Source of the DNA: Vicinamibacteria bacterium
GTDB taxonomy: Bacteria > Acidobacteriota > Vicinamibacteria > Vicinamibacterales > JAENWD01
Assembly (NCBI GenBank): GCA_016650245.1
Contig: JAENWD010000289.1
Coordinates: 1 to 49,764, forward strand
Reading direction: 5' to 3'
Length of the DNA stretch: 49,764 nt
The notes beneath the pieces were generated by a model. It made no database searches. It worked only from the letters and a program-made list of their open reading frames with translations, and was not told the DNA's origin. Below, one piece after another: positions 1,267 through 20,318 of this stretch. Numbering within the stretch: the first letter of the stretch is position 1; each line of letters begins with the position of its first letter. The position numbers and the translations under genes are program-made.

Positions 1267-1522
1267 GAGGGTGGAGGACACGATGCACGCTCGAGCCGCG
1301 CCTTGCGGATCCTGGCGCCCAATGCGTCGACGGCGCGCCTGATCTCCGGGATTTTTCACCAAAACCCGTTCCAGATGTGACGTTCCCGTAAACTCCGTCC
1401 TCGCCGCCCAACGTTTTCCCTCGTCGCAACCGACGCGTTACATCCTCGTCACGACCGCCTCCTAGCATTTCAAAGACTCGCGCCGGCACTCTGTTGAAGA
1501 CGATTTCGTTCCGCCGGCGCAA

Positions 1523-5981: not shown

Positions 5982-6602
5982 GTGGCACGGTTTCGCCTGA
6001 TCCCCCGTGAAGAGAAGTTCTACGCCGATTTCCTCACGCTGGCCGACCAGATTGTCGCCGCGGCCGCGGCGCTCGACCGCATGCTCGCCACTGAGATCCC
6101 CGACTGGGAGGTGGCCCTGCAGATCCACGACATCGAGAATGACTGTGACGGAATCACGCACGCGGTCATTCAGCGCCTCAACCGCACGTTCGTGACCCCG
6201 ATCGACCGCGAAGACATCCATCAATTGGCGCGGTCGCTCGACGACGTGATTGACGCCATCGACGCCGCCGCCACGGTGATCCGGCGCTACCGCGTGATGC
6301 CGGTCCGTTACGGCGCTCGCGAGCTGGCGACGATCATCGTCAAGTCGACGCACAAGGTCCGTATGGCCGTCGACGCGCTCGAGCGCAAGCACGGCGTCCA
6401 TGAGCACGCCGTCGAGGTGAATCGCCTCGAGAACGAAGCCGACCGCATGCACGACGAAGCGCTGCGCCGGCTGTTCGAGGAAGAGCACGACCCGATTACC
6501 GTCATCAAGTGGAAGGAAGTGCTCGATTTCCTCGAAGAGGCGACCGATCGGTGCGAGGACGTGGCCGACGTCCTTGAAGGCGTCGTCGTCAAGCACGGCT
6601 AG
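5982..6602 (+). CDS. DUF47 / PhoU-like phosphate-transport regulator (TIGR00153-type)
   Basis: 206 aa with a GTG start preceded by AAAGGA. The N-terminus RFRLIPREEKFYADFLTLADQI and the helical repeats with E/D-x-x-x-D motifs (ENDCDGITHAV, ENEADRMHDEA) fit this family. It sits immediately upstream of a PiT transporter, the classic DUF47-pit pairing. Confidence 0.75.
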   Translation: MARFRLIPREEKFYADFLTLADQIVAAAAALDRMLATEIPDWEVALQIHDIENDCDGITHAVIQRLNRTFVTPIDREDIHQLARSLDDVIDAIDAAATVIRRYRVMPVRYGARELATIIVKSTHKVRMAVDALERKHGVHEHAVEVNRLENEADRMHDEALRRLFEEEHDPITVIKWKEVLDFLEEATDRCEDVADVLEGVVVKHG

Positions 6603-6616
6603 CAGGTCGCCCTTCG

Positions 6617-7606
6617 ATGGAATTTGCTGCCGTCGCCTTCCTCATCCTGGTCGCGCTGACCTTCGACTACATCAACGGCTTTCACGACGCCGCCAACTCG
6701 ATTGCCACCGTCGTCTCGACCAGAGTGCTGTCGCCTGGCAAGGCGGTGATCTGGGCGGCCTTCTTCAACTTCGCGGCCGCCTTTGGTTTCGGGACCGCCG
6801 TGGCCAAGACGGTGGGCTCGGGCATGATCGACATCCGCGAAGTCACCTTCCTGGTGATCTTCGCCGGCCTGTTTGCCGCGATCGTGTGGGATCTGATCAC
6901 CTGGTACTACGGGCTGCCCACCAGCTCGTCGCACGCGCTCATCGGCGGCTACGCCGGTGGCGCGGTGGCCAAGGCCGGCGTTGGGGCAATCATCGTGTCG
7001 GGCTGGACCAAGACCCTCATCTTCATCGTGTTGGCGCCGACGATTGGCCTGGTGCTCGGCTTTGGGCTCATGGTCGCGATCTTCTGGCTGTTCCGCGGCT
7101 TCGCGCCGTCGAAAGTGGACCGCTGGTTCCGGCGTCTCCAGCTGGTGTCGGCTGCGGCGTATAGCCTGGGTCACGGCGCCAACGACGCGCAGAAGACGAT
7201 GGGCATCATCGCCGGGGTGCTGCTGGCCGGCGGCTACCTGACGGTCTTCGAGATCCCCTTCTGGGTTGTGCTTGCGGCGCACGGTGCGATCGCGCTGGGC
7301 ACGCTGACCGGCGGCTGGCGCATCATTCACACGATGGGCTCGAAGATCACGCGGCTGCAGCCGGTGGGCGGCTTTGCCGCCGAGACCGCCGGCGCCGTGT
7401 CGCTGTTCCTTGCCACGAGCCTCGGCGTTCCGGTCAGCACCACCCACACCATCACCGGCGCCATCGTCGGGGTCGGCGCGACCAGGCGCCTGTCGGCCGT
7501 TCGCTGGGGCATCGCCGGCAGGATCGTGTGGGCGTGGATTCTGACGATTCCCGCCTCCTTCTTCATCGCCGCGGTCACGTATTGGACGCTGTCTCACGTT
7601 CTCTAG
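6617..7606 (+). CDS. pit: Inorganic phosphate transporter, PiT (PHO4) family
   Basis: 329-aa membrane protein carrying the PiT signature twice (FDYINGFHDAANSIATVVSTRVL and AAYSLGHGANDAQKTMGII). Confidence 0.9.
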   Translation: MEFAAVAFLILVALTFDYINGFHDAANSIATVVSTRVLSPGKAVIWAAFFNFAAAFGFGTAVAKTVGSGMIDIREVTFLVIFAGLFAAIVWDLITWYYGLPTSSSHALIGGYAGGAVAKAGVGAIIVSGWTKTLIFIVLAPTIGLVLGFGLMVAIFWLFRGFAPSKVDRWFRRLQLVSAAAYSLGHGANDAQKTMGIIAGVLLAGGYLTVFEIPFWVVLAAHGAIALGTLTGGWRIIHTMGSKITRLQPVGGFAAETAGAVSLFLATSLGVPVSTTHTITGAIVGVGATRRLSAVRWGIAGRIVWAWILTIPASFFIAAVTYWTLSHVL

Positions 7607-7610
7607 AACC

Positions 7611-7757
7611 GGTTCGGTCTGGTTGGGCCGGGTTGGGTCTGGTTCGGCCAGGTTGATCTCGGTTGGCCCGGGTTCCACGCCCTGGCTGCCGGGCAACGGG
7701 TTCAACCAGGCTCAACCGACATCAACCCGACCTGACCTGACCGAACCCGATCAACCC
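7611..7757. repeat. Inverted pair of about 10-nt tandem arrays (GGTTNGGNCN x7 at 7611-7680; complementary CAACCNGANN units at 7713-7757), family C
   Basis: Read directly. The left array is in exact 10-nt register (ggttcggtct ggttgggccg ggttgggtct ggttcggcca ggttgatctc ggttggcccg ggttccacgc). The reverse complement of the right array (gggttgatcgggttcggtcagg...) is the same family. The pair fills the pit/phoR convergent spacer, and the phoR stop (7751-7753) lies inside the last unit. Confidence 0.85.
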
Positions 7758-9514
7758 TTCCCGTCCGCCTGCGGCAACCGCACCGTAAACACCGCCCCGC
7801 CTTCGGCACGCGAGCCAGCAGTGACGGCGCCGCCCAGCAACTCGACCAGGTGCTTCACGATGGCCAGGCCGATGCCCGTCCCGCCCGGCGCGCGCGAGCG
7901 CGATTTATCCACGCGGTAGAACCGCTCGAAGACTCGTGTCAGGTCCGCCAGCGGGATGCCCGGCCCGTTGTCGAGCACGCGGAGCACCAGCGCCAGCGGC
8001 TCGCGCTCGGCTTCCACCACCACGTGTCCGCCCTCGGGCGCGTAGTTGACCGCGTTCTCGATCAGGTTCCGCAAGACGTCGTGCAGCTTGGCCGGGTCCG
8101 ACACCACCGTGCGCGCGCCTGCGGCCAACCTCACCTCGACCTGTGACCTGCGCTGGTCGATCGGGCCGGTCAGATCGGCGATCACGCCTTGGAGCACCGA
8201 GCCCAGGTCGCACTCGACCATGTCTGGCGTTTCCTGTCCGGCATCGAGTCGCGCCAGTCGAAGCAGGTCCTTCACCAGGCGCTCCATACGGATCGAGTGG
8301 CGCGCGATGATCTCCAGGAAGCGCCGGCTCTGCTCGGGCGGCGGTGGGTCGTCGAGCAGCGCCTCGACATAGCCGCGAATCGCCGTGAGCGGCGTGCGCA
8401 ATTCGTGGGAGACATTGGCGACGAAATCGCGCCGCACTCGATCGGCGCGCCGCAGGTCGCTGATGTCGTGCAGGACGAGAATCGCGCCGCCTTCCGGCTC
8501 GCCAGCCGGCGCCGCGCGCGAGACGCACGTGCGTGATGGATCGCGCGCAAGCACGAACTCCACGCCTCCAGGGGCCTCGCCGTCCAGCGCATGCGCGATC
8601 TGCGCAAACAGCTCGGGCTGCCGCATCCACTCCTGATACCGCCGCCCTGTCGAGTCGCCGTCGAGCTTGAGCATCCCGCTGGCCGCGTCGTTGGCCATGA
8701 CGAGTCGGCCCTGCGGGTCGAGCACGACGACCCCTTCGACCATCCCCGAGAGAATCGCGCGCAGGTGGCGCCGGTCGTGGGCAAGGTCGTCGACGCGCCG
8801 GCCCAGCTCGTGGACGGTGGCATCGAGCGCGCGCGCCACCTCGCCCAGCTCGTCGTCGCCGTACCCGGCGGCCGGGCGCGTGAGGTCGCCGGTGGCGTAG
8901 CGGCGCGCCACCAAGGCGATCGCTTCGACGCGTCGCCCAATGGGCGCAGACACGAGCCACGCGCAGAGTGCGGCCACGGGCAGCGACGCCGCCACGCCGG
9001 CCACGACCAGCCACAGCACGGCCCACTGCTGATCGGCCACCTCCGTCAGAGGCAGCGACAAGCGCACGAAAGCGATTGTCGGATGGTCGATGCGGACGAC
9101 GGCGTACAACGTGTCGTAGTCGGTGGTGGTGCTGTAGCGCCGAATCAGCACTTCCGGTCGTGCGCGCGCGGCTTGAATCTCCGGGCGTCGGCCGTGGTTC
9201 TCCATGGCCGCCAGCGCCGCGCCGTCCTCGGTGGAATCGCCTAACACCCGGCCGTCGTCGGCGACGAGCGTCACCCGGACACCCGCCAGACGACCCATGC
9301 GGTCGGCTTCCTCGTCGAGCTGATCGAGCGGCAGGGCCGGGTTGCGAGTGAGCAGCTCGGCGGCCAACCGCGTTTCGGCCGACAGTGTCGCCTCGATGCG
9401 TTCCACTGTGAGCCTGCGGATCCACGCCTGCAGCACCAGCCCGGCGGCCATTGCCGAGACGGCCCCGACGATGAAGGCGGCCAGGAACACCTTGCCCCGA
9501 AAACGCACGGTCAC
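7751..9514 (-). CDS. phoR: PhoR-like sensor histidine kinase (TM - periplasmic segment - TM - HAMP - PAS - HisKA - HATPase)
   Basis: The H-box RRDFVANVSHELRTPLTAIRGYVEAL is close to E. coli PhoR. N, G1 and G2 boxes are present (LRNLIENAVNY, LDNGPGI, GGTGIGLAIVKH). I place the start at GTG 9512-9514, just after the response-regulator stop. The 632-aa track ORF extends into the upstream gene. Confidence 0.8.
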   Translation of the reverse strand: MTVRFRGKVFLAAFIVGAVSAMAAGLVLQAWIRRLTVERIEATLSAETRLAAELLTRNPALPLDQLDEEADRMGRLAGVRVTLVADDGRVLGDSTEDGAALAAMENHGRRPEIQAARARPEVLIRRYSTTTDYDTLYAVVRIDHPTIAFVRLSLPLTEVADQQWAVLWLVVAGVAASLPVAALCAWLVSAPIGRRVEAIALVARRYATGDLTRPAAGYGDDELGEVARALDATVHELGRRVDDLAHDRRHLRAILSGMVEGVVVLDPQGRLVMANDAASGMLKLDGDSTGRRYQEWMRQPELFAQIAHALDGEAPGGVEFVLARDPSRTCVSRAAPAGEPEGGAILVLHDISDLRRADRVRRDFVANVSHELRTPLTAIRGYVEALLDDPPPPEQSRRFLEIIARHSIRMERLVKDLLRLARLDAGQETPDMVECDLGSVLQGVIADLTGPIDQRRSQVEVRLAAGARTVVSDPAKLHDVLRNLIENAVNYAPEGGHVVVEAEREPLALVLRVLDNGPGIPLADLTRVFERFYRVDKSRSRAPGGTGIGLAIVKHLVELLGGAVTAGSRAEGGAVFTVRLPQADGKG

Positions 9515-9516
9515 GA

Positions 9517-10215
9517 TTACGGCTCGGTCAGCTTGTAGCCGAACTGCTTCACGGTGATCAGGCCTTCGGCCAGCAGCGGCAGTTTCTCGCGCAGCCGTCG
9601 TACGTGCACGTCCACAGTGCGCGTGCCTCCGGTATACGAGTAGCCCCACACGTCCGAGAGCAGGAGATCGCGCGACAGCACGCGCCCCCGGTGCTCCAGC
9701 AGGTACTGCAGCAGCAGGAACTCCTTGGCCGTCAGCCGCACCTCGCCCCCGTCTAACGACACGGTATGCCGATCGACGTCGACGGTGAGCGGGCCGAAGC
9801 GCAGCAGGCCCGGCGGGCTGGCGCGGTGCGCGCGGCGCAGCAGCGCGCGCACGCGCGCGACCACTTCGTTTGGGCTGAATGGCTTGGTGATGTAGTCGTC
9901 AGCGCCCAACTCGAGCCCGACGATGCGGTCCGACTCCTCCGCGCGGGCAGTCAGCATGATGATCGGCACCGCCGCCGTGCGTGGATCACCGCGCAAGGTG
10001 CGGCACACCTCGAGGCCATCAAGGCCGGGCAACATCAGGTCGAGCAGCACCAGATCGGGCAGCGACCGGCGCACCGCGGGCAGCACCTCGGCGCCGGACC
10101 GCAGCAGGTCCACGGCAAACCCGGCCCGGCCCAGGCTATGGCTGAGCAGGTGTGCGATATCGTGGTCGTCTTCGACCACCAGAAGACGCGGTGGGGGGGC
10201 GGACGAAGCGGGCAT
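9517..10215 (-). CDS. phoB: PhoB-like OmpR-family response regulator
   Basis: The receiver domain (LLVVEDDHDI...DLVLLDLMLPGLDG) and MLTARAEESDRIVGLELGADDYITKPFSPNEVVARV are nearly colinear with E. coli PhoB as I recall it. The winged-helix C-terminus carries TRTVDVHVRRLREKL. ATG at 10215 is the likely start (track 10251). Confidence 0.8.
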   Translation of the reverse strand: MPASSAPPPRLLVVEDDHDIAHLLSHSLGRAGFAVDLLRSGAEVLPAVRRSLPDLVLLDLMLPGLDGLEVCRTLRGDPRTAAVPIIMLTARAEESDRIVGLELGADDYITKPFSPNEVVARVRALLRRAHRASPPGLLRFGPLTVDVDRHTVSLDGGEVRLTAKEFLLLQYLLEHRGRVLSRDLLLSDVWGYSYTGGTRTVDVHVRRLREKLPLLAEGLITVKQFGYKLTEP

Positions 10216-10422
10216 GAGCGCCGGCAGCAGTATACGTTGCTGACGCGGCACGGCAGCGGGATGTCGTTTTTACCGTCCTCTCCACATCGCAGCGCTGAGC
10301 CGAGCGCAGAGGACACCTTTCCTGGCGGCAGCATGAATGCCGGGGAATTATGCGGTGCGGTGCTTTGGCATCGATGTTGATGGATAGGCAGGGCAGAAGC
10401 TCCCCACTTCGTGGAGGTTGCC

Positions 10423-10872
10423 ATGCGAACGACTGTAGCTGCCATCGCAGGAGCCCTGCTGGCGACGTTGGGACTGGCCGTCGTGCAGACACGGACCAGC
10501 ATGCCGGTGCAAACCCCTGGTGCGATGTCGGCCGCGTGGCCCGGCCTGACTGGCGCGCAACCCGTGGGCCTTTCCACCGCTGGATTGGCGACTGCCGTTC
10601 AGATGGGCGCCCAGCCGCTCGCCGCCGGTGACATCGTCGAGTACCGGCCCAGAGCGCAGGCTGTGCGCTACGTGCAGGACGAGCCCGTACGTCGAGCCGT
10701 GGCACGCACCGCGCCCAGGCGTTCGTGGCAGAAGACGGCGCTCGTGATCGGCGGATCGGCAGGCGCCGGCGCGGGAATCGGCGCGCTGGCCGGCGGCAAG
10801 AAGGGCGCGCTCATCGGCGCCGCCATCGGCGGCGGCGCGGGTTCGATCTTCGAGGCGTTCAAGCGGCGGTGA
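10423..10872 (+). CDS. Secreted/membrane glycine-zipper protein
   Basis: ATG at 10423 lies 5 nt after GGAGG. It has a signal peptide (MRTTVAAIAGALLATLGLAVVQ) and a C-terminal Gly-zipper (LVIGGSAGAGAGIGALAGGKKGALIGAAIGGGAGSIF). Confidence 0.6.
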   Translation: MRTTVAAIAGALLATLGLAVVQTRTSMPVQTPGAMSAAWPGLTGAQPVGLSTAGLATAVQMGAQPLAAGDIVEYRPRAQAVRYVQDEPVRRAVARTAPRRSWQKTALVIGGSAGAGAGIGALAGGKKGALIGAAIGGGAGSIFEAFKRR

Positions 10873-11542
10873 CCCAGTACACGCCCAACGCGATCGAGGC
10901 GACCGCCGTCACCATCGCCGCACCACGGCCGACGGCGGCCGCCATCACCTGTGAGCCGAGCACGCGCGACAGCATGATCCCGAACAGCGACATCGCCAGC
11001 AGGATGCCCGCCGCGAAGACGCCCACCAGATAGAGCAGCGTCAGCAGCGACGCGGTGGCGACGTCTGGGGACAACTCAGGCCCGAGCAGGGTCAGGGCGC
11101 GAAGGCCGCTGACGGCAAACACGGCGCCCAGCAGGCCCGCGCGGCGCGAGTGTGCAGGTGGCGACGGATGGCGGTCGCGCCGGCCGAAATGCACGTGCCA
11201 GTGGCGCCACCCCGCGCGGTGCGTGTGGCCGTACAGCCGCTCGGCGGCCACGACCCACAATGTGAAGGCGCCCATCAGAATCAACAGCACGCCGCCGACA
11301 ATCTCCCCGGCCCGCTCGACCAGGGCCGGGATCTGCCAGCCCAGCACAAGGACGGCGCCGGCGCCCACCAACAGGACCAACGCGTGGCCGAGGGCAAAAC
11401 GGATCGCGACGCGAATCGGCTCGCGTCGCCCGGCGCCGGGCGAGCCGTCGGTGTTGACGGCGAGCGCCGCGATGGCCATGAGGTGGTCGGCGCCCAGGCC
11501 GTGGAGGAAGCCAAGCGAGAGCGCCGTGGCGGTAAGAATCAC
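10859..11542 (-). CDS. Putative nickel/cobalt permease (NiCoT/UreH-like, 6 TM) with His-rich loop
   Basis: 227 aa with a GTG start. The N-terminal GFLHGLGADHLMAIAAL resembles the HX4DH signature of NiCoT/UreH permeases. The central loop YGHTHRAGWRHWHVHFGRRDRHPSPPAH is His-rich. Confidence 0.5.
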   Translation of the reverse strand: MILTATALSLGFLHGLGADHLMAIAALAVNTDGSPGAGRREPIRVAIRFALGHALVLLVGAGAVLVLGWQIPALVERAGEIVGGVLLILMGAFTLWVVAAERLYGHTHRAGWRHWHVHFGRRDRHPSPPAHSRRAGLLGAVFAVSGLRALTLLGPELSPDVATASLLTLLYLVGVFAAGILLAMSLFGIMLSRVLGSQVMAAAVGRGAAMVTAVASIALGVYWVTAA

Positions 11543-11560
11543 CTGGCGATCGTAACAGAC

Positions 11561-13219
11561 CTAGCGGTCGACTCCGACAAGCGCCCACCCAGTGCCCGCG
11601 CGGCGGAACACGACGGTGGTGGGGGTGGCCCAGCCGGTGTGCGTGGGGTGATCGCCAGTCAGCGTGGCCTGGACGAAGTCGCCCGAAAGCGCCTCGCGTG
11701 GGGCGGTGGCGCGCGTCTCGGTGACGACCTGCGGCTCCCCGACGGGCGTTGCGGTGCCGGTGGCGTTGTCAAATCGTGCCCAGGCAACCTTGTAGCCGCG
11801 GCCCGCCGTCGCCGTCCTGGTCTCGACGGCGATATTACGAAACGTCAGCGCGCCCTCTGCAGTCAGGTCGAAGTCGTCCACGGGCAACACGACGTTCAGC
11901 CAGAGTTGGCCGATCTTGTCGCGACGCGTGATGAGGGTCTGCGCCATGTACGCCGTGGCTTCCGGATCTGAGAATTCAGCCGTCCGGCTGACCTCGAGGA
12001 TCGCCTCGTCGGAGAAGGCCATCACGCCGCGGGCACCCCATAACAAATCGTCGGGCCCTGTGTTGTCGAAGGCCGGATTTGGATATTCCGGCTTCCAGCG
12101 CTCGGGACGGAAGTAGTTGGCCTCGAAGCGCCCGACGGCCGGCAGGTCCGGGTAGTGCACTTTCAGCCACGGCCGCACGTAGAAACCCAGCGTGATCATC
12201 GAGATCAGCGTCGGCCGCGCTTCCCAGATGTACTCGTTGCCGGCGCGTGTCCCCTGGGCGCGGGTGCTGCCGCTGCCCAGCGTCGAACCGAAGTCGATCA
12301 GGTAATGCCGGACGATCTTGCGGGGGCCGGCGTCCTGCAGGAAATCGCGCGTGTTGATGGCGCGGCTGTCGTCGTGATTCAGCCAGGCGCCGAACACGCG
12401 CATCGCGCGCAGCTCGCGGCGATGCTCGTGTGGATGGATGTCGTTAGGATCATCGGGTCGCGTCCCGTAGTACCTGAACGGGCCGATGTCCTTGCCTGTG
12501 ATGCCCTTGCTGGCGACCACCCGATAACTGCCGTCGGCATGGCGCGCCGCCTTGAGCAGCAGCGCGTCGACATCGGCCTCGGTCATCGCCCGGGTGCGGC
12601 CGTGCTCGTCGTCCAGCATCGTGTTGGGCGCGATGCGCAAGTCGTCGCGGCGCAACGACGCCAGGTAGTTCTCCGGCACATTGAACCCCAGTGCCCAGAA
12701 CAGCCGCGTCGAGATCACTTCGGCGCCGGTGGCCATCTCGGGGTTCGACGGCGGGTCGAACTTCACGAAGTAGAGCGTGCCCGTGCTGTCGCGCACGGTC
12801 ATGCCGGGCGAGATGCCTTCGCTCTTGGCGTCGACGATCGTCCAGATGCCGGATTGCGGCGGCTGACCGCGATAGGGACCGCGAATGACGTCCTCCACCG
12901 ACAGCACTTCGGCGGTGCCCAGACGCTGGGTGTACCAGCTCGAGTTGGGGACATGGTCGATCGTGTTGAGGTTGACAGCGCGCTGGTCTTTCTGTTCGCC
13001 CGCATTGAGGAAGCTGTTCTCGAGGAAGTCGTACTGGTCGCTGAGGTCGATCTCTTTCACACCCGAGGCGTCCTGGGTCTCCGGGTCTTCGTGCAGCGGG
13101 TCGTCGTCGTAGAAGCGCGGGGCCACGCCGTCTACGGCCGACACCGACGCGGTCAGCAGAGCCGCGCCAAGGAGTGCACCGAGACGCCAGGGTCGGAGAG
13201 TCACGTCAGAACGCTCCAC
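11561..13219 (-). CDS. Secreted hypothetical protein with protein-kinase-like catalytic motifs
   Basis: 552 aa with a signal-peptide-like N-terminus (RPWRLGALLGAALLTASVSAV). Kinase-like motifs occur in the canonical order: LYFVKF (Lys153), GAEVISTRLF (Glu167), NHDDSRAIN (HxDxxxxN, 282-289) and LIDFGSTLG (DFG, 309-311). The track start 13219 is GTG; an alternative GTG at 13204 lies 9 nt after GGAG. Confidence 0.55.
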   Translation of the reverse strand: MERSDVTLRPWRLGALLGAALLTASVSAVDGVAPRFYDDDPLHEDPETQDASGVKEIDLSDQYDFLENSFLNAGEQKDQRAVNLNTIDHVPNSSWYTQRLGTAEVLSVEDVIRGPYRGQPPQSGIWTIVDAKSEGISPGMTVRDSTGTLYFVKFDPPSNPEMATGAEVISTRLFWALGFNVPENYLASLRRDDLRIAPNTMLDDEHGRTRAMTEADVDALLLKAARHADGSYRVVASKGITGKDIGPFRYYGTRPDDPNDIHPHEHRRELRAMRVFGAWLNHDDSRAINTRDFLQDAGPRKIVRHYLIDFGSTLGSGSTRAQGTRAGNEYIWEARPTLISMITLGFYVRPWLKVHYPDLPAVGRFEANYFRPERWKPEYPNPAFDNTGPDDLLWGARGVMAFSDEAILEVSRTAEFSDPEATAYMAQTLITRRDKIGQLWLNVVLPVDDFDLTAEGALTFRNIAVETRTATAGRGYKVAWARFDNATGTATPVGEPQVVTETRATAPREALSGDFVQATLTGDHPTHTGWATPTTVVFRRAGTGWALVGVDR

Positions 13220-14501
13220 TGAAGGAGGTGTTGAACCGCACGCCCTCCTGCCGGCTGCGGGCGATGTCGAATCGCAGGAACACGCTCCTGAAGGTGTTGA
13301 ACCGGAAACCGAGGCCGTAGTCGTTCTTCAGGTGCTTGAAGTCGATCTCGTCCCAGGTGGGCGCGACGTTGCCCCAATCACCGAACAGCGCCATGTCGAG
13401 GCCCGAGAAAGCCTCCCAGCGATACTCGGCGTTGAGCAGGAAGGCGCTGGCGTCGCGGTAGCGGAACTCGCTGAACCCTCGCAGCGTCGTCGAACCTCCC
13501 AGCGTGGGCATGGCAAAAAACGGCACCGTGTTGCCCGAGGGGCTGTCGAGCGAGTACGCGATCGCCCGCGCGATGATGACGCGCTTCTTGTCGAAGATCG
13601 GAAACGCGTGCAGCGCCTCCGCGCGCAGCTCGTTGAAGCTGTAGCCGAAGTCCTGCCGGTCGCGCCAGACGTCGTAGCTGACGCGGAAGTGGCCTCCGCT
13701 CTTCACATTGGCCCGCTGGTCGCGATAGTCGATATCGACAAACGCGCCCGACCACCAATAATCGGGCTGCCGCGTCAGGCCGGGGGCCGTGGCTTCCGTG
13801 AAGCGCTCGTCGATGGGCGGAAGGCCCGGATACTTGCCCTCGTCGACCCGCTCGGTGCGGAACGCCGTCAACGCGCCGAGCCTGAACCACCGCGTGGGCT
13901 TGTAGGCGGCGTCGCCGCGCACTTCCCACCCCTCTCTGAGGAAGGTGGAGCTGGCCTCCTTCTCGACGTCCGGGCCCAGCCCGTAGTACCGCTCGCGCGG
14001 CCAGTAGCGCAGGTAGCCATGACCGCCAAGCTCGACCTTACCGCCGGCGATCTTCGGGAAGGTCAGCTCGCTCGTCATGAACCAGTAGTTGCGGAACGAC
14101 CCGACGAACCAGGTGTGGAACAGCGCCTGCTCGCCAAACAGCCAGTTCTTGTATCCAGGGCCCATGCCGAGGCCGCCGCCTTTGGTGAGGCCACCGAAGT
14201 GGAAATACCAGCCCTCGTACGGCTTGAACAGCCTCGTGGTGAACCGCGAGTCCTCCATCCAGAGGAGCCCGGATTCGAGCTTTCCGGGTGCGTATGGCGC
14301 CAGTGCCTTCGCCTTCTCGGCGCGCTGGACCTCGAGTGCTTCGCGCCGCGAGGTCTGCGCCGAGCCGGGCGCGGCGGCCGAGACCACCAGGATCAAGGCG
14401 ATCATCAGGCGCCAGACGGCGGCCTGGGGTCGAGCGTCGTGCGAGCCATGCATACGAGACTTGGCACGGTACGTCTGCCGCCGATCAATGTCAAACGTCA
14501 C
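13206..14501 (-). CDS. Omp85/BamA-TamA-family outer-membrane beta-barrel without recognisable POTRA domains
   Basis: It has a signal peptide (WRLMIALILVVSAAAPGSAQ) and a Bac_surface_Ag-like C-terminal half (PTLGGSTTLRGFSEFRYRDASAFLLNAEYRW...FGDWGNV...YGLGFRF). It ends ...TSFSGAF with a terminal Phe. The start is GTG 14501 (GTGA overlap with the MFS stop) or ATG 14453. Confidence 0.65.
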   Translation of the reverse strand: MTFDIDRRQTYRAKSRMHGSHDARPQAAVWRLMIALILVVSAAAPGSAQTSRREALEVQRAEKAKALAPYAPGKLESGLLWMEDSRFTTRLFKPYEGWYFHFGGLTKGGGLGMGPGYKNWLFGEQALFHTWFVGSFRNYWFMTSELTFPKIAGGKVELGGHGYLRYWPRERYYGLGPDVEKEASSTFLREGWEVRGDAAYKPTRWFRLGALTAFRTERVDEGKYPGLPPIDERFTEATAPGLTRQPDYWWSGAFVDIDYRDQRANVKSGGHFRVSYDVWRDRQDFGYSFNELRAEALHAFPIFDKKRVIIARAIAYSLDSPSGNTVPFFAMPTLGGSTTLRGFSEFRYRDASAFLLNAEYRWEAFSGLDMALFGDWGNVAPTWDEIDFKHLKNDYGLGFRFNTFRSVFLRFDIARSRQEGVRFNTSFSGAF

Positions 14502-15823
14502 GCGTCGGCAGGCACGTCACGCCGGAGGAGAAACCACAACGCGACCACCGACAGCAGCACGCCGTTGATCGCGATGGCGGCAGGGGCGCCGATGCGGTCG
14601 ATGACCAGGCCGGTCACCAGACTGCCAAGCGGCATCCCGCCGCGGAACGCCATCATGTAGATGCTCATCACGCGGCCCCGCATCTGGTTGGGCGCGGTGA
14701 GCTGCACCAGCGACGTGAACAGGGAGAACACCACCATCAACGCCGCGCCGGCCACGGCCAGCAGCGCGTAGCTGATCCAGAGCGCGCGCGTGTAGGCAAA
14801 CGCGACCGTCAGCGCTCCAAACAGCACCTGCCCCGAGAGCGCCGTGACGCCCATGCGGCTGAAGCGTCCCATCCAGGCCACCGCCAGCGCGCCGGCCACC
14901 GCGCCGACGCCCGACCATGCCATCATCTGGCTGTACTGGCCGACGCCTCCGTGAAAGACGCTGCGCGCAAATACCGGAAGGAAGGTCAGCAGCGGCACGC
15001 CGAGAAACGTCGAGGCCAGCGCGAGTACGGTGAGCGTGCGAATCGCCGGCTCGTCACGCACGTACACCAGTCCGGTTCGCAGCTCGTCGAGCATGCGTCG
15101 CTGGCCCACCGGCGCGACGTGCGGCGTGTTCAGCGACAGCAGCGCCGCGATCACGACGAGAAACGACAGGCCGTTGACCGTGAAGCACGACGCGCTTCCC
15201 AGCGAGTGCAGCGTCACCCCGGCAAGCAGCGGTCCGATCACGCGCGCGATGTTGAACTGGATCGAGTTGAGCGCGACGGCGTTGGGCAGGTGGTCCTTGT
15301 GGACCAGCGACGGAATCAGCGACTGATACGCCGGGCCGCCAAAGGCCTGCGCGCACCCGGAGAGAAACGACAGCGCAAGCACGTGCCAGATCTGCACCCA
15401 GCCGCCGAAGACCAGGACCGCCAGCGCGAAAGCCGACGACATCTGCACGACCTGCGAGGCCAGCAGCAACACGCGGCGGTCGCGCCGATCGGCGACCACG
15501 CCGCCGATCAGCGTGAACAGCAGAATCGGCAGTTCGCCCAGAAACGCGTCGAGTGCGAGATAGCTGGCGGAGTTGGTCAACTCGAGGACCAGCCAGCTCT
15601 GCGCAACCTTCTGCATCCAGGTGCCGATACTCGACGTGCAGGCGCCCATCCACAGCACCCGGAAGTCGCGGTAGCCGAGCGCTGCGGCCAGCCGCTGCAC
15701 GATCGGCCCGCCAATGTTGGGGGTGACGGGGAGAGCAGGACCTGAGGCCGGCGCGGAATCCACGAGGAGCGATCTTATAAGAATTGCAGATTGCAGATTG
15801 CAGATTGACGATTGAGATGTCAC
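14498..15823 (-). CDS. MFS transporter (EntS/MFS_3-like)
   Basis: About 12 predicted TM helices with an N-terminal YRDFRVLWMGACTSSIGTWMQ motif. The 15823 (GTG) start reads through the heptamer array and leaves only 8 nt to the divergent gene. An internal GTG at 15700 (VQRLAAALGYRDF...) is a plausible true start. Confidence 0.75.
   Translation of the reverse strand: MTSQSSICNLQSAILIRSLLVDSAPASGPALPVTPNIGGPIVQRLAAALGYRDFRVLWMGACTSSIGTWMQKVAQSWLVLELTNSASYLALDAFLGELPILLFTLIGGVVADRRDRRVLLLASQVVQMSSAFALAVLVFGGWVQIWHVLALSFLSGCAQAFGGPAYQSLIPSLVHKDHLPNAVALNSIQFNIARVIGPLLAGVTLHSLGSASCFTVNGLSFLVVIAALLSLNTPHVAPVGQRRMLDELRTGLVYVRDEPAIRTLTVLALASTFLGVPLLTFLPVFARSVFHGGVGQYSQMMAWSGVGAVAGALAVAWMGRFSRMGVTALSGQVLFGALTVAFAYTRALWISYALLAVAGAALMVVFSLFTSLVQLTAPNQMRGRVMSIYMMAFRGGMPLGSLVTGLVIDRIGAPAAIAINGVLLSVVALWFLLRRDVPADA
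15783..15817. repeat. Heptamer tandem array (ATTGCAG x3, ATTGACG, ATTGAGA), family A in reverse orientation
   Basis: Read directly. It lies in the divergent region between the MFS gene and the heparinase-like gene (ATG 15832). Confidence 0.85.
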
Positions 15824-15831
15824 GCTGATTC

Positions 15832-17712
15832 ATGTCACGTCGATTCGTGTTCCTGGCGGTCCTGACTGGTTCCCTGGCTGTCGCTCTGGTGTCGGCGCAA
15901 CCACCCACGTCCCCTCCGGCGCCACCGGTCACCACGGCACCACCGCCCGTCCTCGCCACATTGCGATTGGGCCATCCGCGCCTTCTCGTCCTCGATGACG
16001 ACATTCCCGGGCTGCGGCGTCAACTCGCCGACGATGTCCGCTTGCGTGGGTGGCGCGACAGGCTGCAGCAGGAGGCTGGGCGCATGCTCGACGAGCCGGT
16101 GGTGGAGCCAACGCTGGTCGGGTCGCGGCTCCTGGCGCAGAGTCGTGCGGCGCTCCACCGGATTTCGACGCTGGCCGGTCTCTACCTGATTGACGGCGAT
16201 CCGCGCAAGCTCGCGCGTGCCAAAGCCGAGATGCGGTCGGCGGCGGCCTTCACAGACTGGAACCCCTCGCACTTTCTCGACGTGGCCGAGATGACAGCGG
16301 CGATGGCGCTCGGGTACGACTGGTTGTACCCGGATCTGTCCCCCGACGAACGCGCGCAGTTTCGCGCGGCGATCATCTCCAAGGGACTCGAGCCAGGCGT
16401 TCAGGCCATCGACACGCGGGCGTTCTGGGCCGCCGAGGGACGCAACACCTGGACCGAGGTGTGTTTCGGGGGCCTGTCGCTGGGAGCCCTTGCGGTGGCC
16501 GAGCACGCGCCCGCCCTCGCGGCTTCCGTGATCACCGCCATTGGGAGCCGCCGCCTGGCGACCCACCTGCGCCGGTTTGCCCCAGATGGAGGCGATGTGG
16601 AAGGCCCCGGCTACTGGGGCTACTCGACCATGTACCTGACCTTCCTGCTGTCGGCCCTCGACACCGCGCTTGGCACGGACATGGGGCTTGGCCAGATCGA
16701 GGGCCTGGCCTCGACCGGGCAGTACAGGATGTATTCGATTGGTTCCAGCGGGAGGCAGTTCAACTACGCCGACGCCGGCGAGTGGCCCGACGCGGCCCCG
16801 CAGATGCTGTGGATGGCCCGGCGGTTCGATCGCCCGGAATATGCCGCGCACGAGCGGGCGTGGCTCGCGCGGTCCAGGGCCGCGCCGAGCATCCTCCATG
16901 TCCTGTGGAGCGCGCGGCGCCCGGCGCCCGCCGTCTCGTTGCCGGCGACCTCGGCGCGCTTCAGAGGTATCGACGTCGCAATGCTGGGTGGCGACTGGCG
17001 CGACAAGGCAGGCACGTGGGTGGCGTTGAAGGGGGGCAGCAACGCCGCCAGCCTCGGGCACCTCGACCTGGGCAGCTTCGTCCTGGACGCGCTGGGCCAG
17101 CGGTGGGCGGTCGATCTCGGACCGGACTTCTACGACCTGCCGGAGTACTTCGGCCCGCTCAGATGGACCTATTTCCGCCTGCGCACCGAGAGCCACAACA
17201 CGCTACTGGTCAACGGCGCCAACCAGGACGCGACCGCCACGGCGCCCATCGTGGCGTTCAGCGACGACTCGTATCGGGCCTTCGCAATCGCGGATCTGTC
17301 GGCTGCCTACCGACCGGCGGTCGCGCACGCGCGTCGCGGCGTCGCGCTCATCGACGGGCGTGACGTGCTCCTCCAGGACGAAATCGAGGGCGCAGGTTCG
17401 GCCGACGTCGTGTGGCAGATGGCGACACGCGCGCAGGTGACGATCTCAGGAAGCGGGGCGGTGCTTCGGCAAAACGGCCTGTCGGCGACGCTGCGGGTGA
17501 TCGAGCCGGCCGGGGCAGTGCTGCGCGCGGAACCCGCGGTGGCCCCGGCGCCCCAGATCGCCCAGCCCGACGTGGCGATCGTCCGCGTGGTGCCACCGGC
17601 CAGAGGCTCCAGCCTGCGCTTCGTGCTCTGGTTCTCCACTGGCGACCGCTCGCCCCCCGCCGTCACGCCGCTTGACGCGTGGTCCGGCCCCGAGGTGCGC
17701 GCGCCTCAATGA
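15832..17712 (+). CDS. Heparinase II/III-like (polysaccharide lyase-like) secreted protein
   Basis: It has a signal peptide (MSRRFVFLAVLTGSLAVALVSAQ) followed by a Pro-rich linker. The C-terminal segment GHLDLGSFVLDALGQRWAVDLGPDFY...RTESHNTLLVNG matches the Hepar_II_III pattern. Confidence 0.65.
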   Translation: MSRRFVFLAVLTGSLAVALVSAQPPTSPPAPPVTTAPPPVLATLRLGHPRLLVLDDDIPGLRRQLADDVRLRGWRDRLQQEAGRMLDEPVVEPTLVGSRLLAQSRAALHRISTLAGLYLIDGDPRKLARAKAEMRSAAAFTDWNPSHFLDVAEMTAAMALGYDWLYPDLSPDERAQFRAAIISKGLEPGVQAIDTRAFWAAEGRNTWTEVCFGGLSLGALAVAEHAPALAASVITAIGSRRLATHLRRFAPDGGDVEGPGYWGYSTMYLTFLLSALDTALGTDMGLGQIEGLASTGQYRMYSIGSSGRQFNYADAGEWPDAAPQMLWMARRFDRPEYAAHERAWLARSRAAPSILHVLWSARRPAPAVSLPATSARFRGIDVAMLGGDWRDKAGTWVALKGGSNAASLGHLDLGSFVLDALGQRWAVDLGPDFYDLPEYFGPLRWTYFRLRTESHNTLLVNGANQDATATAPIVAFSDDSYRAFAIADLSAAYRPAVAHARRGVALIDGRDVLLQDEIEGAGSADVVWQMATRAQVTISGSGAVLRQNGLSATLRVIEPAGAVLRAEPAVAPAPQIAQPDVAIVRVVPPARGSSLRFVLWFSTGDRSPPAVTPLDAWSGPEVRAPQ

Positions 17713-20041: not shown

Positions 20042-20283
20042 GAGAGCGGCTCGTCGATCTCGATGGAGAGTGCGTCGGCGCGGCGGATCGACAAGGCGTA
20101 GTTGCGCACGTGCAGTTCCAGGGGGTCGCCCAGCGGGGCGACGCGCGTGACCTGCACCCGCGTGCCGGGCACCAGTCCAAGCTCCATCAGCCGGCGCGCG
20201 ATGGCGCGCGAGCTGTGCACCGCGCGCACGACGGCGTGGACGCCCAGCGGCAGGGTCGCAAGGGAGCGGATGGGGAGGGACAT
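20038..20283 (-). CDS. feoA: FeoA family protein
   Basis: A small SH3-like protein (LMELGLVPGTRVQVTRVAPLGDPLELHVRNYALSIRRADA) translationally coupled to feoB. ATG at 20283 is preferred over the TTG at 20307 used by the track. Confidence 0.85.
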   Translation of the reverse strand: MSLPIRSLATLPLGVHAVVRAVHSSRAIARRLMELGLVPGTRVQVTRVAPLGDPLELHVRNYALSIRRADALSIEIDEPLS

Positions 20284-20318
20284 CGTAAGAATGAGACTCG
20301 TTCTCAAAGAGAATAACT

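What the first reader, a model, noticed from the sequence alone, without database searches (positions are those of the whole stretch)
10859..15823. Candidate undescribed envelope system: MFS exporter, POTRA-less Omp85 barrel, secreted kinase-like protein and NiCoT-like permease in one tightly coupled operon
Four minus-strand genes are packed with a GTGA overlap (14498-14501), a 14-nt overlap or 1-nt gap (about 13206-13219) and an 18-nt gap (11543-11560). That spacing implies co-transcription and translational coupling. The combination covers an inner-membrane exporter, an outer-membrane Omp85-type barrel lacking the usual POTRA periplasmic domains, and a signal-peptide-bearing 552-aa protein with protein-kinase-like catalytic motifs. 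The fourth gene is a metal permease with a His-rich loop. I cannot assign this combination to any characterised pathway. The Omp85 barrel could be a dedicated translocon or anchor for the kinase-like protein, by analogy with two-partner secretion, although TpsB proteins have POTRA domains. A convergent glycine-zipper membrane protein (10423-10872) overlaps the 3' end.
Basis: inference. Interest (0 to 1): 0.7.

Follow-up and report, generated by a model that had tools for sequence, protein, structure and literature searches.

The report
Outer-membrane barrel paired with exported kinase
A soil Acidobacterium encodes an outer-membrane Omp85 barrel without its usual periplasmic domains. The next gene encodes an exported enzyme with a protein-kinase fold.

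Summary
All four minus-strand genes are real and tightly packed. They are an MFS_3 exporter, a POTRA-less Omp85 barrel, a 552-aa signal-peptide protein and a weak NicO/NiCoT-like permease.

Only the barrel and the 552-aa protein form a conserved unit. The barrel lies directly upstream on the same strand in 73/73 Vicinamibacterales loci and in 48/48 loci of a sister subfamily. The two proteins co-diverge (r=0.93). MFS_3 is adjacent in 7/26 loci and NicO in 4/27.

The 552-aa family has at least 4,496 clusters at 50% identity and no Pfam, NCBIfam or PDB sequence match. It models with high confidence (pLDDT 94) as a HipA/CtkA-type kinase fold with conserved Lys, HxD…N and DFG residues.

Recurring neighbours concern extracytoplasmic phosphate:
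- a PhoB/PhoR-like two-component system;
- PitA with PhoU_div;
- in sister arrays, TLC/NTT nucleotide carriers, exported PAP2 and a lipoprotein Metallophos.

My best reading is an exported phosphotransferase that works with a dedicated barrel in phosphate-linked envelope physiology. I could not exclude two-partner-like secretion or phosphate scavenging. I found no prior description. Function is inferred, not shown.

The parts
13206..14501 (-). CORE gene 1: POTRA-less ('noNterm') Omp85-family outer-membrane barrel. The ORF runs to GTG 14501, but the likely start is ATG 14453. It has a signal peptide, a periplasmic N-terminal segment of about 40 aa, an LGGS..LRGF lid-lock motif and a C-terminal Phe.
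   Evidence: PF01103 E 1.3e-6 and NF047779 E 2.4e-18 match residues 257-428 only. The family profile A4 hits only the barrel parts of BamA and TamA in the PDB. It lies directly upstream of the kinase-like gene in 73/73 and 48/48 loci.
11561..13219 (-). CORE gene 2: Sec-exported 552-aa kinase-fold protein ('K552'). The likely start is GTG 13204. It comprises a signal peptide (residues ~10-29), a conserved N-terminal extension, a HipA/CtkA-type kinase domain (~120-440) and a C-terminal beta domain (~445-552).
   Evidence: No Pfam, NCBIfam or PDB sequence match. AF2 model pLDDT 94.1, pTM 0.91. Foldseek top hit is CtkA (E 2e-4, prob 1.0, TM 0.53), followed by HipA/HipT, Fam20 and Rio2. K153, E167, H282-x-D284...N289 and D309-F-G are conserved.
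14498..15823 (-). ACCESSORY: MFS_3 (DHA3/EntS-like) inner-membrane exporter. The true start is probably GTG 15763 or 15700. It abuts the barrel gene here but in only a minority of orthologous loci.
   Evidence: PF05977 E 5.6e-73. EntS and TIGR00900 score below their cut-offs. Adjacent in 7/26 loci and within 10 kb in 10/21 clade-A loci. It also occurs in the TLC-type array of L079.
10859..11542 (-). ACCESSORY (lineage-specific): NicO/NiCoT-like six-helix metal permease with an HX4DH motif and a His-rich loop.
   Evidence: PF03824 E 4.3e-5, 23.4 bits, below the gathering score of 27.7. The motifs can be read in the sequence. It follows the pair in only 4/27 loci.
10411..10872 (+). Convergent small exported Gly-zipper protein that overlaps the NicO-like 3' end by 14 nt. 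It separates the operon from the two-component genes in this lineage only.
   Evidence: PF13441 E 3.4e-4, below cut-off. Conserved in L038 and L070 only.
9517..10251 (-). CONTEXT: OmpR-family response regulator, with PhoB as the best match.
   Evidence: TIGR02154 PhoB 231 bits, below the cut-off of 296. It follows the pair on the same strand in 18/27 clade-A loci, at a 55-nt gap in L001.
7751..9649 (-). CONTEXT: sensor histidine kinase (periplasmic Cache-like region, HAMP, PAS, HisKA, HATPase). PnpS and PhoR are the best matches. The true start is probably near 9530, overlapping the regulator stop.
   Evidence: Pfam domains. PnpS 321 bits and PhoR TIGR02966 288 bits, both below their cut-offs.
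5982..7606 (+). CONTEXT: PhoU_div (5982-6602) and a PHO4/PitA-type phosphate transporter (6617-7606), convergent with the kinase operon.
   Evidence: PF01865 E 4.4e-24 and PF01384 E 1.2e-93. This pair recurs near the barrel-kinase pair in 11-12/21 clade-A loci and in TLC-type arrays.
15783..15818 (.). Heptad tandem repeat (ATTGCAG, 5.3 copies) in the roughly 68-nt divergent region between the MFS_3 gene and the heparinase II/III-like gene (15832-17712). It may be a regulatory or slippage-prone element of the operon's promoter region.
   Evidence: TRF score 51. It is conserved in L038 and L070 with different copy number and unit variants.

Best explanation
The functional unit is two genes, not four. 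The first is a POTRA-less Omp85 outer-membrane barrel. The second is a Sec-exported enzyme of about 550 aa with a HipA/CtkA-type protein-kinase fold.

Proposed mechanism:
1. The kinase-like enzyme is exported to the periplasm.
2. It works at the outer membrane together with its dedicated barrel, which acts as a docking site, as an activator, or as a route to the substrate.
3. It transfers phosphate from a nucleotide to an envelope component. The substrate class is unknown and could be a glycolipid, a glycan or a protein.
4. This forms part of phosphate-responsive envelope physiology.

In sister loci the same pair travels with TLC/NTT nucleotide carriers, which could supply nucleotide across the inner membrane. 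It also travels with exported phosphatases (PAP2, lipoprotein Metallophos), which could reverse the reaction, and with a PitA-type transporter, which could recover phosphate.

In this window the MFS_3 exporter sits in the operon position that the TLC carrier holds elsewhere. The NicO-like permease is a lineage-specific passenger. A PhoB/PhoR-like system with PitA/PhoU_div lies immediately downstream.

Shown: the gene pairing, co-divergence of the two proteins, the fold, conservation of the catalytic residues, the export signals and the neighbour statistics.

Inferred: kinase activity, the phosphate donor, the substrate, physical contact with the barrel, and any role for MFS_3.
For: Pairing:
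- The barrel lies directly upstream on the same strand in 73/73 K552 loci and 48/48 K445 loci that have enough flank.
- The same holds in a complete Acidobacteriota genome carrying a 1151-aa form.
- In the sources' own gene calls the spacing runs from a 4-nt overlap to 18 nt.
- The distance matrices of the two proteins correlate at r=0.925, and 0 of 2000 Mantel permutations reach this. Paralogues are included.
- The pair is tandemly duplicated as a unit in L037 and L055.

Fold:
- AF2 gives pLDDT 94.1.
- Foldseek finds CtkA (prob 1.0, TM 0.53), then HipA/HipT, Fam20 and Rio2.
- Conservation across 62 sequences of 30-89% identity: K153 53/62, D284 54/62, N289 56/62, D309 59/62. The equivalent residues are invariant in the K445 subfamily.

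Export:
- K552, the barrel and PAP2 have signal peptides.
- Metallophos has a lipobox.

Context:
- In clade A the response regulator follows in 18/27 loci, the histidine kinase in 17/27, and PHO4 is nearby in 11/21. PhoB and PhoR/PnpS are the best matches.
- TLC proteins score 40-60 bits on PF03219 against a gathering score of 21.
- A TLC gene is downstream in 14/22 K445 loci, and a divergent NTT-HEAT gene is upstream in 12/23.
- A TLC gene is directly upstream in 7/29 and an NTT-HEAT gene is nearby in 13/29 clade-B loci.
- PAP2 is fused to the kinase-like domain in a recurrent lineage or sits at +1.
- GT87, a family of glycosyltransferases that from general knowledge use lipid-linked sugar donors outside the cytoplasm, sits at +1 in 6/27 loci.
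Against: - No kinase activity, donor or substrate has been shown.
- The accepted view is that the periplasm holds no ATP (for example PMC7391070).
- TLC/NTT genes are absent from this window and from all clade-A loci.
- The TLC proteins are very distant from characterised NTTs (TIGR00769 31-39 bits against a cut-off of 387), so their substrate is unknown.
- MFS_3 is a drug/siderophore-exporter type. It is adjacent in only 7/26 loci, and no homology links it to nucleotide transport.
- The most invariant residues of the family (R254, D257, D260, H264, R267, R268, R271) are not canonical kinase motifs and could serve another chemistry.
- The phosphate-gene linkage is partial and may partly reflect inherited synteny within one order.
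- No test of contact between the barrel and the enzyme could be run.
Confidence: 0.42

Rival explanations
1. Two-partner-like secretion. The barrel is a dedicated outer-membrane translocon that exports the kinase-like protein to the cell surface or the medium. There it acts on external substrates or on other cells.
For: The order of barrel gene then cargo gene with tight spacing, strict co-occurrence and co-divergence matches TpsB/TpsA logic. The closest solved fold, CtkA, is an exported kinase of H. pylori whose pro-inflammatory activity depends on the Tfs3 type IV secretion system (PMC5536186). The variable C-terminal domains (beta domain, PAP2, extensions of 400-600 aa) resemble variable passenger modules.
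Against: The barrel has no POTRA domains, which TpsB proteins use to recognise cargo. K552 has no TPS domain or any Pfam match. The authors of the Leptospira study argue that the predicted extracellular dome of noNterm Omp85 barrels speaks against transport (PMC11358297). The co-encoded partners (lipoprotein Metallophos, TLC carriers, PitA) act at the inner membrane or in the periplasm.
Confidence: 0.22
2. Phosphate or nucleotide scavenging. The pair belongs to a Pho-controlled pathway that captures external nucleotides or organophosphates. The kinase-fold protein binds or hydrolyses them, PAP2 and Metallophos release phosphate, PitA imports the phosphate, and TLC carriers import nucleotides. 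No periplasmic phosphorylation of a cellular target takes place.
For: PhoB/PhoR-like genes and PitA/PhoU_div lie next to the pair. The PAP2 is soluble and exported, with intact acid-phosphatase motifs. Metallophos is a lipoprotein. All characterised NTTs take up nucleotides or ATP from outside the cell or organelle (PMC5381601). Gene calls merged with PPK2 and phytase-like domains suggest further phosphate genes nearby.
Against: A full set of phosphotransfer residues is conserved, which simple binding would not need. No role for an Omp85 barrel in solute uptake is known. GT87 and a membrane Ser/Thr kinase in some arrays do not fit scavenging.
Confidence: 0.2
3. The four genes are one integrated system as written. 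The MFS exports a small molecule, the barrel passes it across the outer membrane, the kinase-like protein modifies it, and the NiCoT-like permease supplies a metal cofactor.
For: The four genes are tightly spaced on one strand with no terminator-like site between them. The same order is kept in the closest relatives L038 and L070. MFS_3 is enriched near the pair in both Vicinamibacterales clades.
Against: NicO follows the pair in 4/27 loci and MFS_3 is adjacent in 7/26. In L001 a DsbD_N gene on the opposite strand precedes the barrel, and the response regulator follows K552 directly. K445 arrays and the 1151-aa form lack both genes.
Confidence: 0.08
4. A HipA-like toxin used against competitors, exported through the barrel.
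For: The fold resembles the HipA/HipT toxin kinases.
Against: No antitoxin or immunity gene accompanies it. It is a conserved, often multi-copy core gene with 46-89% identity across an order rather than a variable toxin. No defence or toxin model matches. Its neighbours are phosphate-metabolism genes.
Confidence: 0.03

Closest known systems
Two-partner secretion (type Vb; TpsB/TpsA, e.g. FhaC/FHA)
   Same: An Omp85-superfamily barrel gene sits immediately next to the gene of a Sec-exported partner. The pairing is strict. The barrel carries a conserved loop-6 RG(F/Y) motif.
   Different: The barrel has no POTRA domains. The partner has no TPS domain and is a globular kinase-fold enzyme, not a beta-helical exoprotein. 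Secretion has not been shown.
noNterm Omp85 subfamily (Heinz & Lithgow 2014, PMC4104836; Leptospira LIC12252/12254/12258, PMC11358297)
   Same: A 16-strand-type Omp85 barrel with only a short periplasmic N-terminus. Function is unknown in both. NCBIfam NF047779 partly matches.
   Different: Only the C-terminal half matches NF047779 (66.8 bits against a cut-off of 200). The neighbours described for the Leptospira and Bacteroidetes genes are DUF1566 and Big-domain lipoproteins, not a kinase-fold partner.
CtkA (H. pylori) and HipA/HipT kinases; structural neighbourhood of PI4KII-alpha and Fam20C (PMC3974213)
   Same: These are the best structural matches. The Lys, HxD…N and DFG arrangement is shared. 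CtkA and Fam20 also act outside the cytoplasm of their producer.
   Different: There is no detectable sequence-family membership. K552 adds a conserved N-terminal extension of about 90 aa, a family-specific invariant motif (R254, D257, D260, H264, R267, R268, R271) and a C-terminal beta domain. It is linked to an Omp85 gene and has a Sec signal instead of a toxin-antitoxin or type IV secretion context.
Fam20C secretory-pathway kinase supplied by lumenal nucleotide carriers (an analogy for how it may work, not a family assignment)
   Same: A signal-peptide kinase-fold enzyme acts in a non-cytoplasmic compartment. In sister loci it is encoded next to carriers of the ATP/ADP-transporter family.
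   Different: This is bacterial, the homology is at fold level only, and the direction and substrate of the TLC carriers are unknown. The window itself has no TLC gene.
NTT-HEAT(-cNBD) carriers of free-living bacteria (PMC5381601)
   Same: The sister arrays carry exactly this architecture: TLC plus HEAT repeats, followed in L084 by a cNMP-binding gene. It lies divergent from, or upstream of, the barrel-kinase pair.
   Different: They are not present in this window. Their function is unknown in the literature, and the link to an exported kinase-fold protein is not described in that survey, the only study of these carriers I read.

Membership tests
Two-partner secretion (TpsB/TpsA) | The TpsB barrel carries two periplasmic POTRA domains. 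| tested here: not met
   No POTRA Pfam hit. The family profile aligns only to the barrel parts of BamA and TamA. The mature N-terminus before the barrel is about 40 aa.
Two-partner secretion (TpsB/TpsA) | The cargo has an N-terminal TPS (haemagglutination activity) domain. | tested here: not met
   Neither K552 nor the 33 homologues scanned match any secretion-domain family, even at E<=10.
Two-partner secretion (TpsB/TpsA) | The barrel and cargo genes are adjacent and co-inherited. | tested here: met
   73/73 and 48/48 loci; r=0.925 between the distance matrices.
Two-partner secretion (TpsB/TpsA) | The cargo is translocated across the outer membrane by the barrel. | not testable with these tools
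   This needs localisation experiments.
noNterm Omp85 subfamily | An Omp85 beta-barrel domain with the loop-6 lid-lock motif. | tested here: met
   PF01103 and NF047779 hits. The LGGS..LRGF..R motif is conserved in A4. Hits to BamA and TamA barrels.
noNterm Omp85 subfamily | No periplasmic N-terminal domain. | tested here: met
noNterm Omp85 subfamily | Full-length match to the NCBIfam NF047779 model (the only POTRA-less Omp85 model that gave a hit). | tested here: not met
   66.8 bits against a cut-off of 200, covering model positions 233-420 only. It is therefore a different noNterm lineage.
HipA/CtkA-type protein-kinase-like fold | A bilobal kinase fold resembling solved members. | tested here: met
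   Foldseek: CtkA E 2.1e-4, prob 1.00, TM 0.47-0.53; HipT prob 0.92-0.96. The model has pLDDT 94.1.
HipA/CtkA-type protein-kinase-like fold | The catalytic residues: beta-3 Lys, helix-C Glu, HxD…N loop and DFG Asp. | tested here: met
   K153, E167, H282/D284/N289 and D309 are conserved in 51-59 of 62 diverse members and are invariant in K445.
HipA/CtkA-type protein-kinase-like fold | Sequence membership in Pfam HipA_C or HipA_2. | tested here: not met
   Only 2 of 33 members touch HipA_2, at E 0.034. The PDB profile search finds no kinase.
HipA/CtkA-type protein-kinase-like fold | ATP-dependent phosphotransfer activity. | not testable with these tools
   A biochemical assay is needed.
MFS_3 / DHA3 exporters (EntS, Mef, Tet(V)) | A Pfam MFS_3 match above threshold, and equivalog-level identity to a named exporter. 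| tested here: inconclusive
   PF05977 scores 246.6 bits against a gathering score of 27, so the family criterion is met. EntS scores 124 bits against a cut-off of 324, and TIGR00900 scores 214 against 320, so no specific exporter can be assigned.
NiCoT/NicO metal permeases | A Pfam NicO match above the gathering score, and the HX4DH signature. | tested here: inconclusive
   23.4 bits against a gathering score of 27.7. The HX4DH motif (LHGLGADH) and the His-rich loop are present in the sequence.
PhoB/PhoR phosphate regulon system | Equivalog-level match to PhoB and PhoR. | tested here: inconclusive
   These are the best or near-best matches but fall below the cut-offs: PhoB 231 bits against 296, PhoR 288 against 334, PnpS 321 against 400. 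Adjacency to PitA/PhoU_div supports a phosphate role.
TLC/NTT nucleotide carrier coupling | A TLC-family gene in the locus. | tested here: not met
   tblastn finds no hit in the window or in any clade-A locus. The gene is present only in sister arrays.

The most novel reading that the evidence does not exclude
The pair is the core of a nucleotide-driven phosphorylation system in the bacterial periplasm. Inner-membrane carriers of the ATP/ADP-translocase (TLC/NTT) family, or an MFS in this lineage, export ATP in exchange for ADP. An exported kinase docked on a POTRA-less Omp85 barrel phosphorylates an outer-membrane or envelope component. Exported PAP2 or Metallophos phosphatases reverse the modification, and PitA recovers the phosphate. 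This would be a bacterial counterpart of Fam20-type kinases in the Golgi lumen. It would assign a function both to noNterm Omp85 proteins and to the NTT-HEAT carriers of free-living bacteria.
Probability: 0.18. Interest if true: 0.92.

Novelty: new variant of a known kind. Interest (0 to 1): 0.72.

Why it matters
Three open questions meet in this gene pair:
- POTRA-less Omp85 barrels are widespread, and none has a known function. Here one has an obligatory partner that can be purified and assayed.
- A kinase-fold family of at least 4,500 sequence clusters has no entry in Pfam or NCBIfam and no sequence match to a solved structure. It carries export signals, although the periplasm is held to contain no ATP.
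- In sister loci the pair is wired to TLC/NTT carriers, whose role in free-living bacteria is unexplained.

If the enzyme is active outside the cytoplasm, it would show a new way for diderm bacteria to modify their envelope, or to handle phosphate, in phosphorus-poor soils. Vicinamibacteria are abundant members of such soils. Even under the most conservative reading, the result gives a clean two-gene target for experiments and removes two genes from the proposed system.

Tried and rejected
- Sequence searches of K552 against Pfam, NCBIfam and the PDB, as a single sequence and as a profile, gave nothing usable.
- The first AF2 run used a shallow alignment of 33 sequences at 57% identity or more. 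It gave pLDDT 72 with the catalytic loop unmodelled, and weak Fam20 top hits. It was superseded by the 62-sequence run.
- Apparent Omp85-kinase fusions (P0222, P0426, P0428) look like frameshifted read-throughs or merged gene calls of the two adjacent genes in error-prone assemblies. P0222 has garbled stretches, and the L169 gene call is fragmentary. I did not use them as fusion evidence. The PPK2 and phytase-like 'fusions' are treated the same way and count only as hints about neighbours.
- I considered using the K552-PAP2 fusion as proof that the enzyme stays anchored in the inner membrane. Hydropathy shows no transmembrane helix beyond the signal peptide, so the fusion is soluble and the argument fails.
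- PADLOC gave no defence-system match. Rfam gave no RNA family between 5500 and 18000.
- The cluster look-up gave no organism names for the K445 subfamily, so its phylum remains unknown.
- Literature searches for an Omp85-kinase pairing, for periplasmic kinases and for Vicinamibacteria phosphate physiology found no prior description.
- The promoter and terminator scan was uninformative: counts were at chance, and sigma-70 consensus matches appeared only on the opposite strand.

Full report
**Observation.** The window is high-GC (about 67%). Its closest relatives are Vicinamibacteria/Vicinamibacterales (Acidobacteriota) metagenome-assembled genomes. The four minus-strand ORFs exist at the stated coordinates and show coding-type codon-position GC. 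Three refinements apply:
- The barrel's signal peptide and the N-termini of its homologues favour ATG 14453. That leaves a 44-nt spacer after the MFS stop instead of the GTGA overlap.
- The kinase-like gene most likely starts at GTG 13204, which has a GGAG 9 nt upstream. This is the 1-nt-gap option.
- The first 20-40 codons of the MFS ORF are probably not coding. They contain a 7-nt tandem repeat that is conserved, with variable copy number, in two related genomes.

No terminator-like site separates the genes, and the scan as a whole is at chance level. Co-transcription is therefore plausible but untested.

**Gene identities.**
- The MFS is a clear MFS_3/DHA3 member (E 5.6e-73), but it matches no named exporter at equivalog level.
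- The barrel matches Omp85 models only over its C-terminal half.
- A profile of 33 family members hits only the barrel portions of BamA and TamA structures. Only about 40 residues lie between the signal peptide and the barrel. It therefore belongs to the known 'noNterm' class of Omp85 proteins, whose function is unknown (PMC4104836, PMC11358297).
- The NicO/NiCoT assignment is below threshold (23.4 bits against 27.7). The HX4DH motif and a His-rich loop support it.
- The 552-aa protein matches nothing in Pfam, NCBIfam, PADLOC or the PDB by sequence.

**Core and accessory genes.** The 552-aa family is large. There are at least 7,708 hits among 90%-identity clusters. A profile search finds 4,496 cluster representatives at 50% identity, of which 1,476 have E<=1e-30. 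I analysed 79 loci from species-representative genomes, 80 metagenome loci of a sister subfamily of about 445 aa ('K445', 40% identical to K552) and several single look-ups.
- An Omp85-like gene lies directly upstream on the same strand in 73/73 K552 loci and 48/48 K445 loci with enough flanking DNA.
- The same holds in a complete Acidobacteriota genome that carries an 1151-aa form.
- The sources' own gene calls put the junction between a 4-nt overlap and 18 nt.
- The K445-associated barrel is homologous to the window's barrel (BLASTP E 1e-10 across the lid-lock region).
- Pairwise distances of the barrels and the kinase-like proteins correlate at r=0.925 across 42 loci that include paralogues. 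None of 2000 permutations reaches this.
- The pair is tandemly duplicated as a unit in L037 and L055.

By contrast, among orthologous loci (clade A, at least 53.5% identity), MFS_3 abuts the barrel in 7/26 and lies within about 10 kb in 10/21. The NicO-like gene follows the pair in 4/27. The conserved unit is therefore two genes.

**The kinase-like protein.**
- A diverse 62-sequence alignment gave an AlphaFold2 model with pLDDT 94.1 and pTM 0.91.
- Foldseek against the PDB ranks the H. pylori kinase CtkA first (E 2.1e-4, probability 1.00, TM 0.47-0.53 on the target). HipA/HipT, other bacterial Ser/Thr kinases, Golgi casein kinase/Fam20, Rio2 and VPS34 follow.
- CtkA, Golgi casein kinase and PI4KII-alpha are known structural neighbours of one another (PMC3974213).
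- The sequence places K153 on strand beta-3 and E167 on the following helix. H282-x-D284-x4-N289 has exactly the protein-kinase HxD…N spacing, and D309-F-G follows.
- These residues are kept in 51-59 of 62 members at 30-89% identity, and their equivalents are invariant in K445.
- The most invariant positions form a family-specific motif (R254, D257, D260, H264, R267, R268, R271) of unknown role.
- A hydrophobic N-terminal segment ending in SVSA-VD fits a Sec signal. No other hydrophobic segment exists.
- The C-terminus varies between subfamilies. It is a beta domain here, absent in K445, a soluble PAP2 phosphatase in a recurrent fusion lineage, and extensions of 400-600 aa without family matches elsewhere.

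**Context.**
- In this window the pair is followed on the same strand by an OmpR-type regulator whose best match is PhoB. Only the NicO-like gene and a convergent Gly-zipper gene intervene.
- A sensor kinase follows, with PnpS and PhoR among its best matches. All of these scores are below the equivalog cut-offs.
- A convergent PitA-type transporter with PhoU_div comes next.
- The regulator and sensor follow the pair in 18/27 and 17/27 clade-A loci, often with no gene in between (55-nt gap in L001). PHO4 is nearby in 11/21.
- In a second set of Vicinamibacterales loci (clade B, 46-52% identity) a recurring array is NTT-HEAT, membrane Ser/Thr kinase, TLC carrier, barrel, kinase-like protein, PAP2. 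In L079 it is flanked by MFS_3 and by PhoU_div-PHO4.
- In K445 loci the array is a divergent NTT-HEAT gene (followed by a cNMP-binding gene in L084), then barrel, K445, a lipoprotein Metallophos and a TLC carrier.
- In those K445 loci TLC is downstream in 14/22 loci, Metallophos is at +1 in 11/22, and NTT-HEAT is upstream in 12/23.
- The PAP2 proteins have signal peptides and intact acid-phosphatase motifs.
- In another subclade a GT87 glycosyltransferase follows the pair. From general knowledge, this family acts outside the cytoplasm on lipid-linked donors.
- The recurrent theme is phosphoryl chemistry outside the cytoplasm. No TLC gene occurs in the window or in clade A.

**Mechanism.** I commit to the following, at 0.42 confidence. 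The kinase-fold enzyme is exported by Sec. It acts in the periplasm at the outer membrane together with its dedicated barrel, and it transfers phosphate from a nucleotide to an envelope component. This happens within a phosphate-responsive programme. The phosphatases, nucleotide carriers and PitA seen in related arrays supply the reverse reaction, the donor and phosphate recovery. MFS_3 occupies the operon slot of the TLC carrier here, but nothing shows that it moves nucleotides. The pairing, the fold, the motifs and the export signals are shown. Activity, donor, substrate and contact with the barrel are inferred.

The main rivals are:
- secretion of the enzyme through the barrel (0.22);
- a phosphate or nucleotide scavenging pathway in which the protein binds or hydrolyses substrates (0.20);
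- a HipA-like toxin (0.03).

**Comparison with known systems.** The pair resembles two-partner secretion in gene logic but fails two defining features, POTRA domains and a TPS domain. The barrel is a member of the noNterm Omp85 class but of a lineage different from the Leptospira one. The enzyme is a member of the HipA/CtkA structural neighbourhood by fold and motifs, but of no sequence family. The neighbours described for noNterm Omp85 genes in Leptospira and Bacteroidetes are lipoproteins, not kinases (PMC11358297). NTT-HEAT carriers of free-living bacteria are uncharacterised (PMC5381601). Reviews state that the periplasm has no ATP (PMC7391070). I found no paper describing this pairing.

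**Verdict.** I rate the finding a new variant of a known kind, namely an Omp85 barrel with a dedicated partner. There is a realistic chance that it is a new kind of system altogether. Interest is 0.72.

**Limits.**
- Nearly all loci come from uncultured Acidobacteriota and soil metagenomes.
- The taxonomy of the K445 subfamily is unknown.
- Neighbour frequencies are inflated by shared ancestry.
- My ORF calling in error-prone assemblies is approximate.
- No barrel model, complex prediction or expression data were available.

Noticed in passing
window 15783-15818 (and 15817-15850): A 7-nt tandem repeat (ATTGCAG, 5.3 copies) lies in the short divergent region between the MFS_3 gene and a heparinase II/III-like gene. 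A 15-nt repeat (2.3 copies) lies next to it and runs over the start of that gene. The heptad array is present with different copy number and unit variants in L038 and L070. It could be a regulator binding array or a slippage-prone switch.
   Followed up: partly
L084 2808-5525 and 9658-11037; L079 3532-8755; many of L086-L165: TLC/NTT-family carriers of free-living soil bacteria, including the NTT-HEAT architecture followed by a cNMP-binding gene, are repeatedly encoded next to the barrel-kinase pair. The function of these carriers is an open question in the literature (PMC5381601).
   Followed up: partly
L037 (three pairs within about 9 kb) and L055 (two pairs): The barrel plus kinase-like pair is tandemly duplicated as a unit, and single MAGs carry several paralogous pairs (for example L020 and L023 come from one MAG).
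   Followed up: partly
P0139, P0210, P0223, P0389-P0417; L166 7001-10456: Forms of the kinase-like protein of 970-1,160 aa carry C-terminal extensions of 400-600 aa with no Pfam match. They are still preceded by an Omp85 gene in a complete Acidobacteriota genome.
   Followed up: partly
L167 7001-9415; L168 7001-8974: Gene calls join the kinase-like domain to a phytase-like (PF13449) or a PPK2 polyphosphate-kinase domain. They are probably merged neighbours in error-prone assemblies. If so, further phosphate-metabolism genes lie next to the pair.
   Followed up: no
L079 5781-7406 and homologues in 19 Vicinamibacterales loci: A Hanks-type Ser/Thr kinase of about 540 aa, whose roughly 215 N-terminal residues contain several hydrophobic (probably membrane-spanning) stretches by eye, sits between NTT-HEAT and TLC in the clade-B arrays. 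It could connect the exported module to cytoplasmic signalling.
   Followed up: no
window 15832-17712 (+): A heparinase II/III-like protein (PF07940 C-terminal domain, E 2e-14) with a signal-peptide-like N-terminus is divergently transcribed from the operon. It is syntenic in L038 and L070.
   Followed up: no
window 17885-20307 (-), 121-4699 (+) and 4752-5807 (-): The surroundings hold FeoB with a small upstream ORF, two TonB-dependent-receptor/OMP_b-brl_4 type outer-membrane proteins, and an AI-2E family transporter. The region is therefore generally rich in envelope and transport genes.
   Followed up: no
window 7751-9649 against 9517-10251: The longest ORF of the sensor kinase overlaps the regulator gene by 133 nt. 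Homologues of about 590 aa with a 4-nt overlap (L003) indicate a start near 9530.
   Followed up: partly
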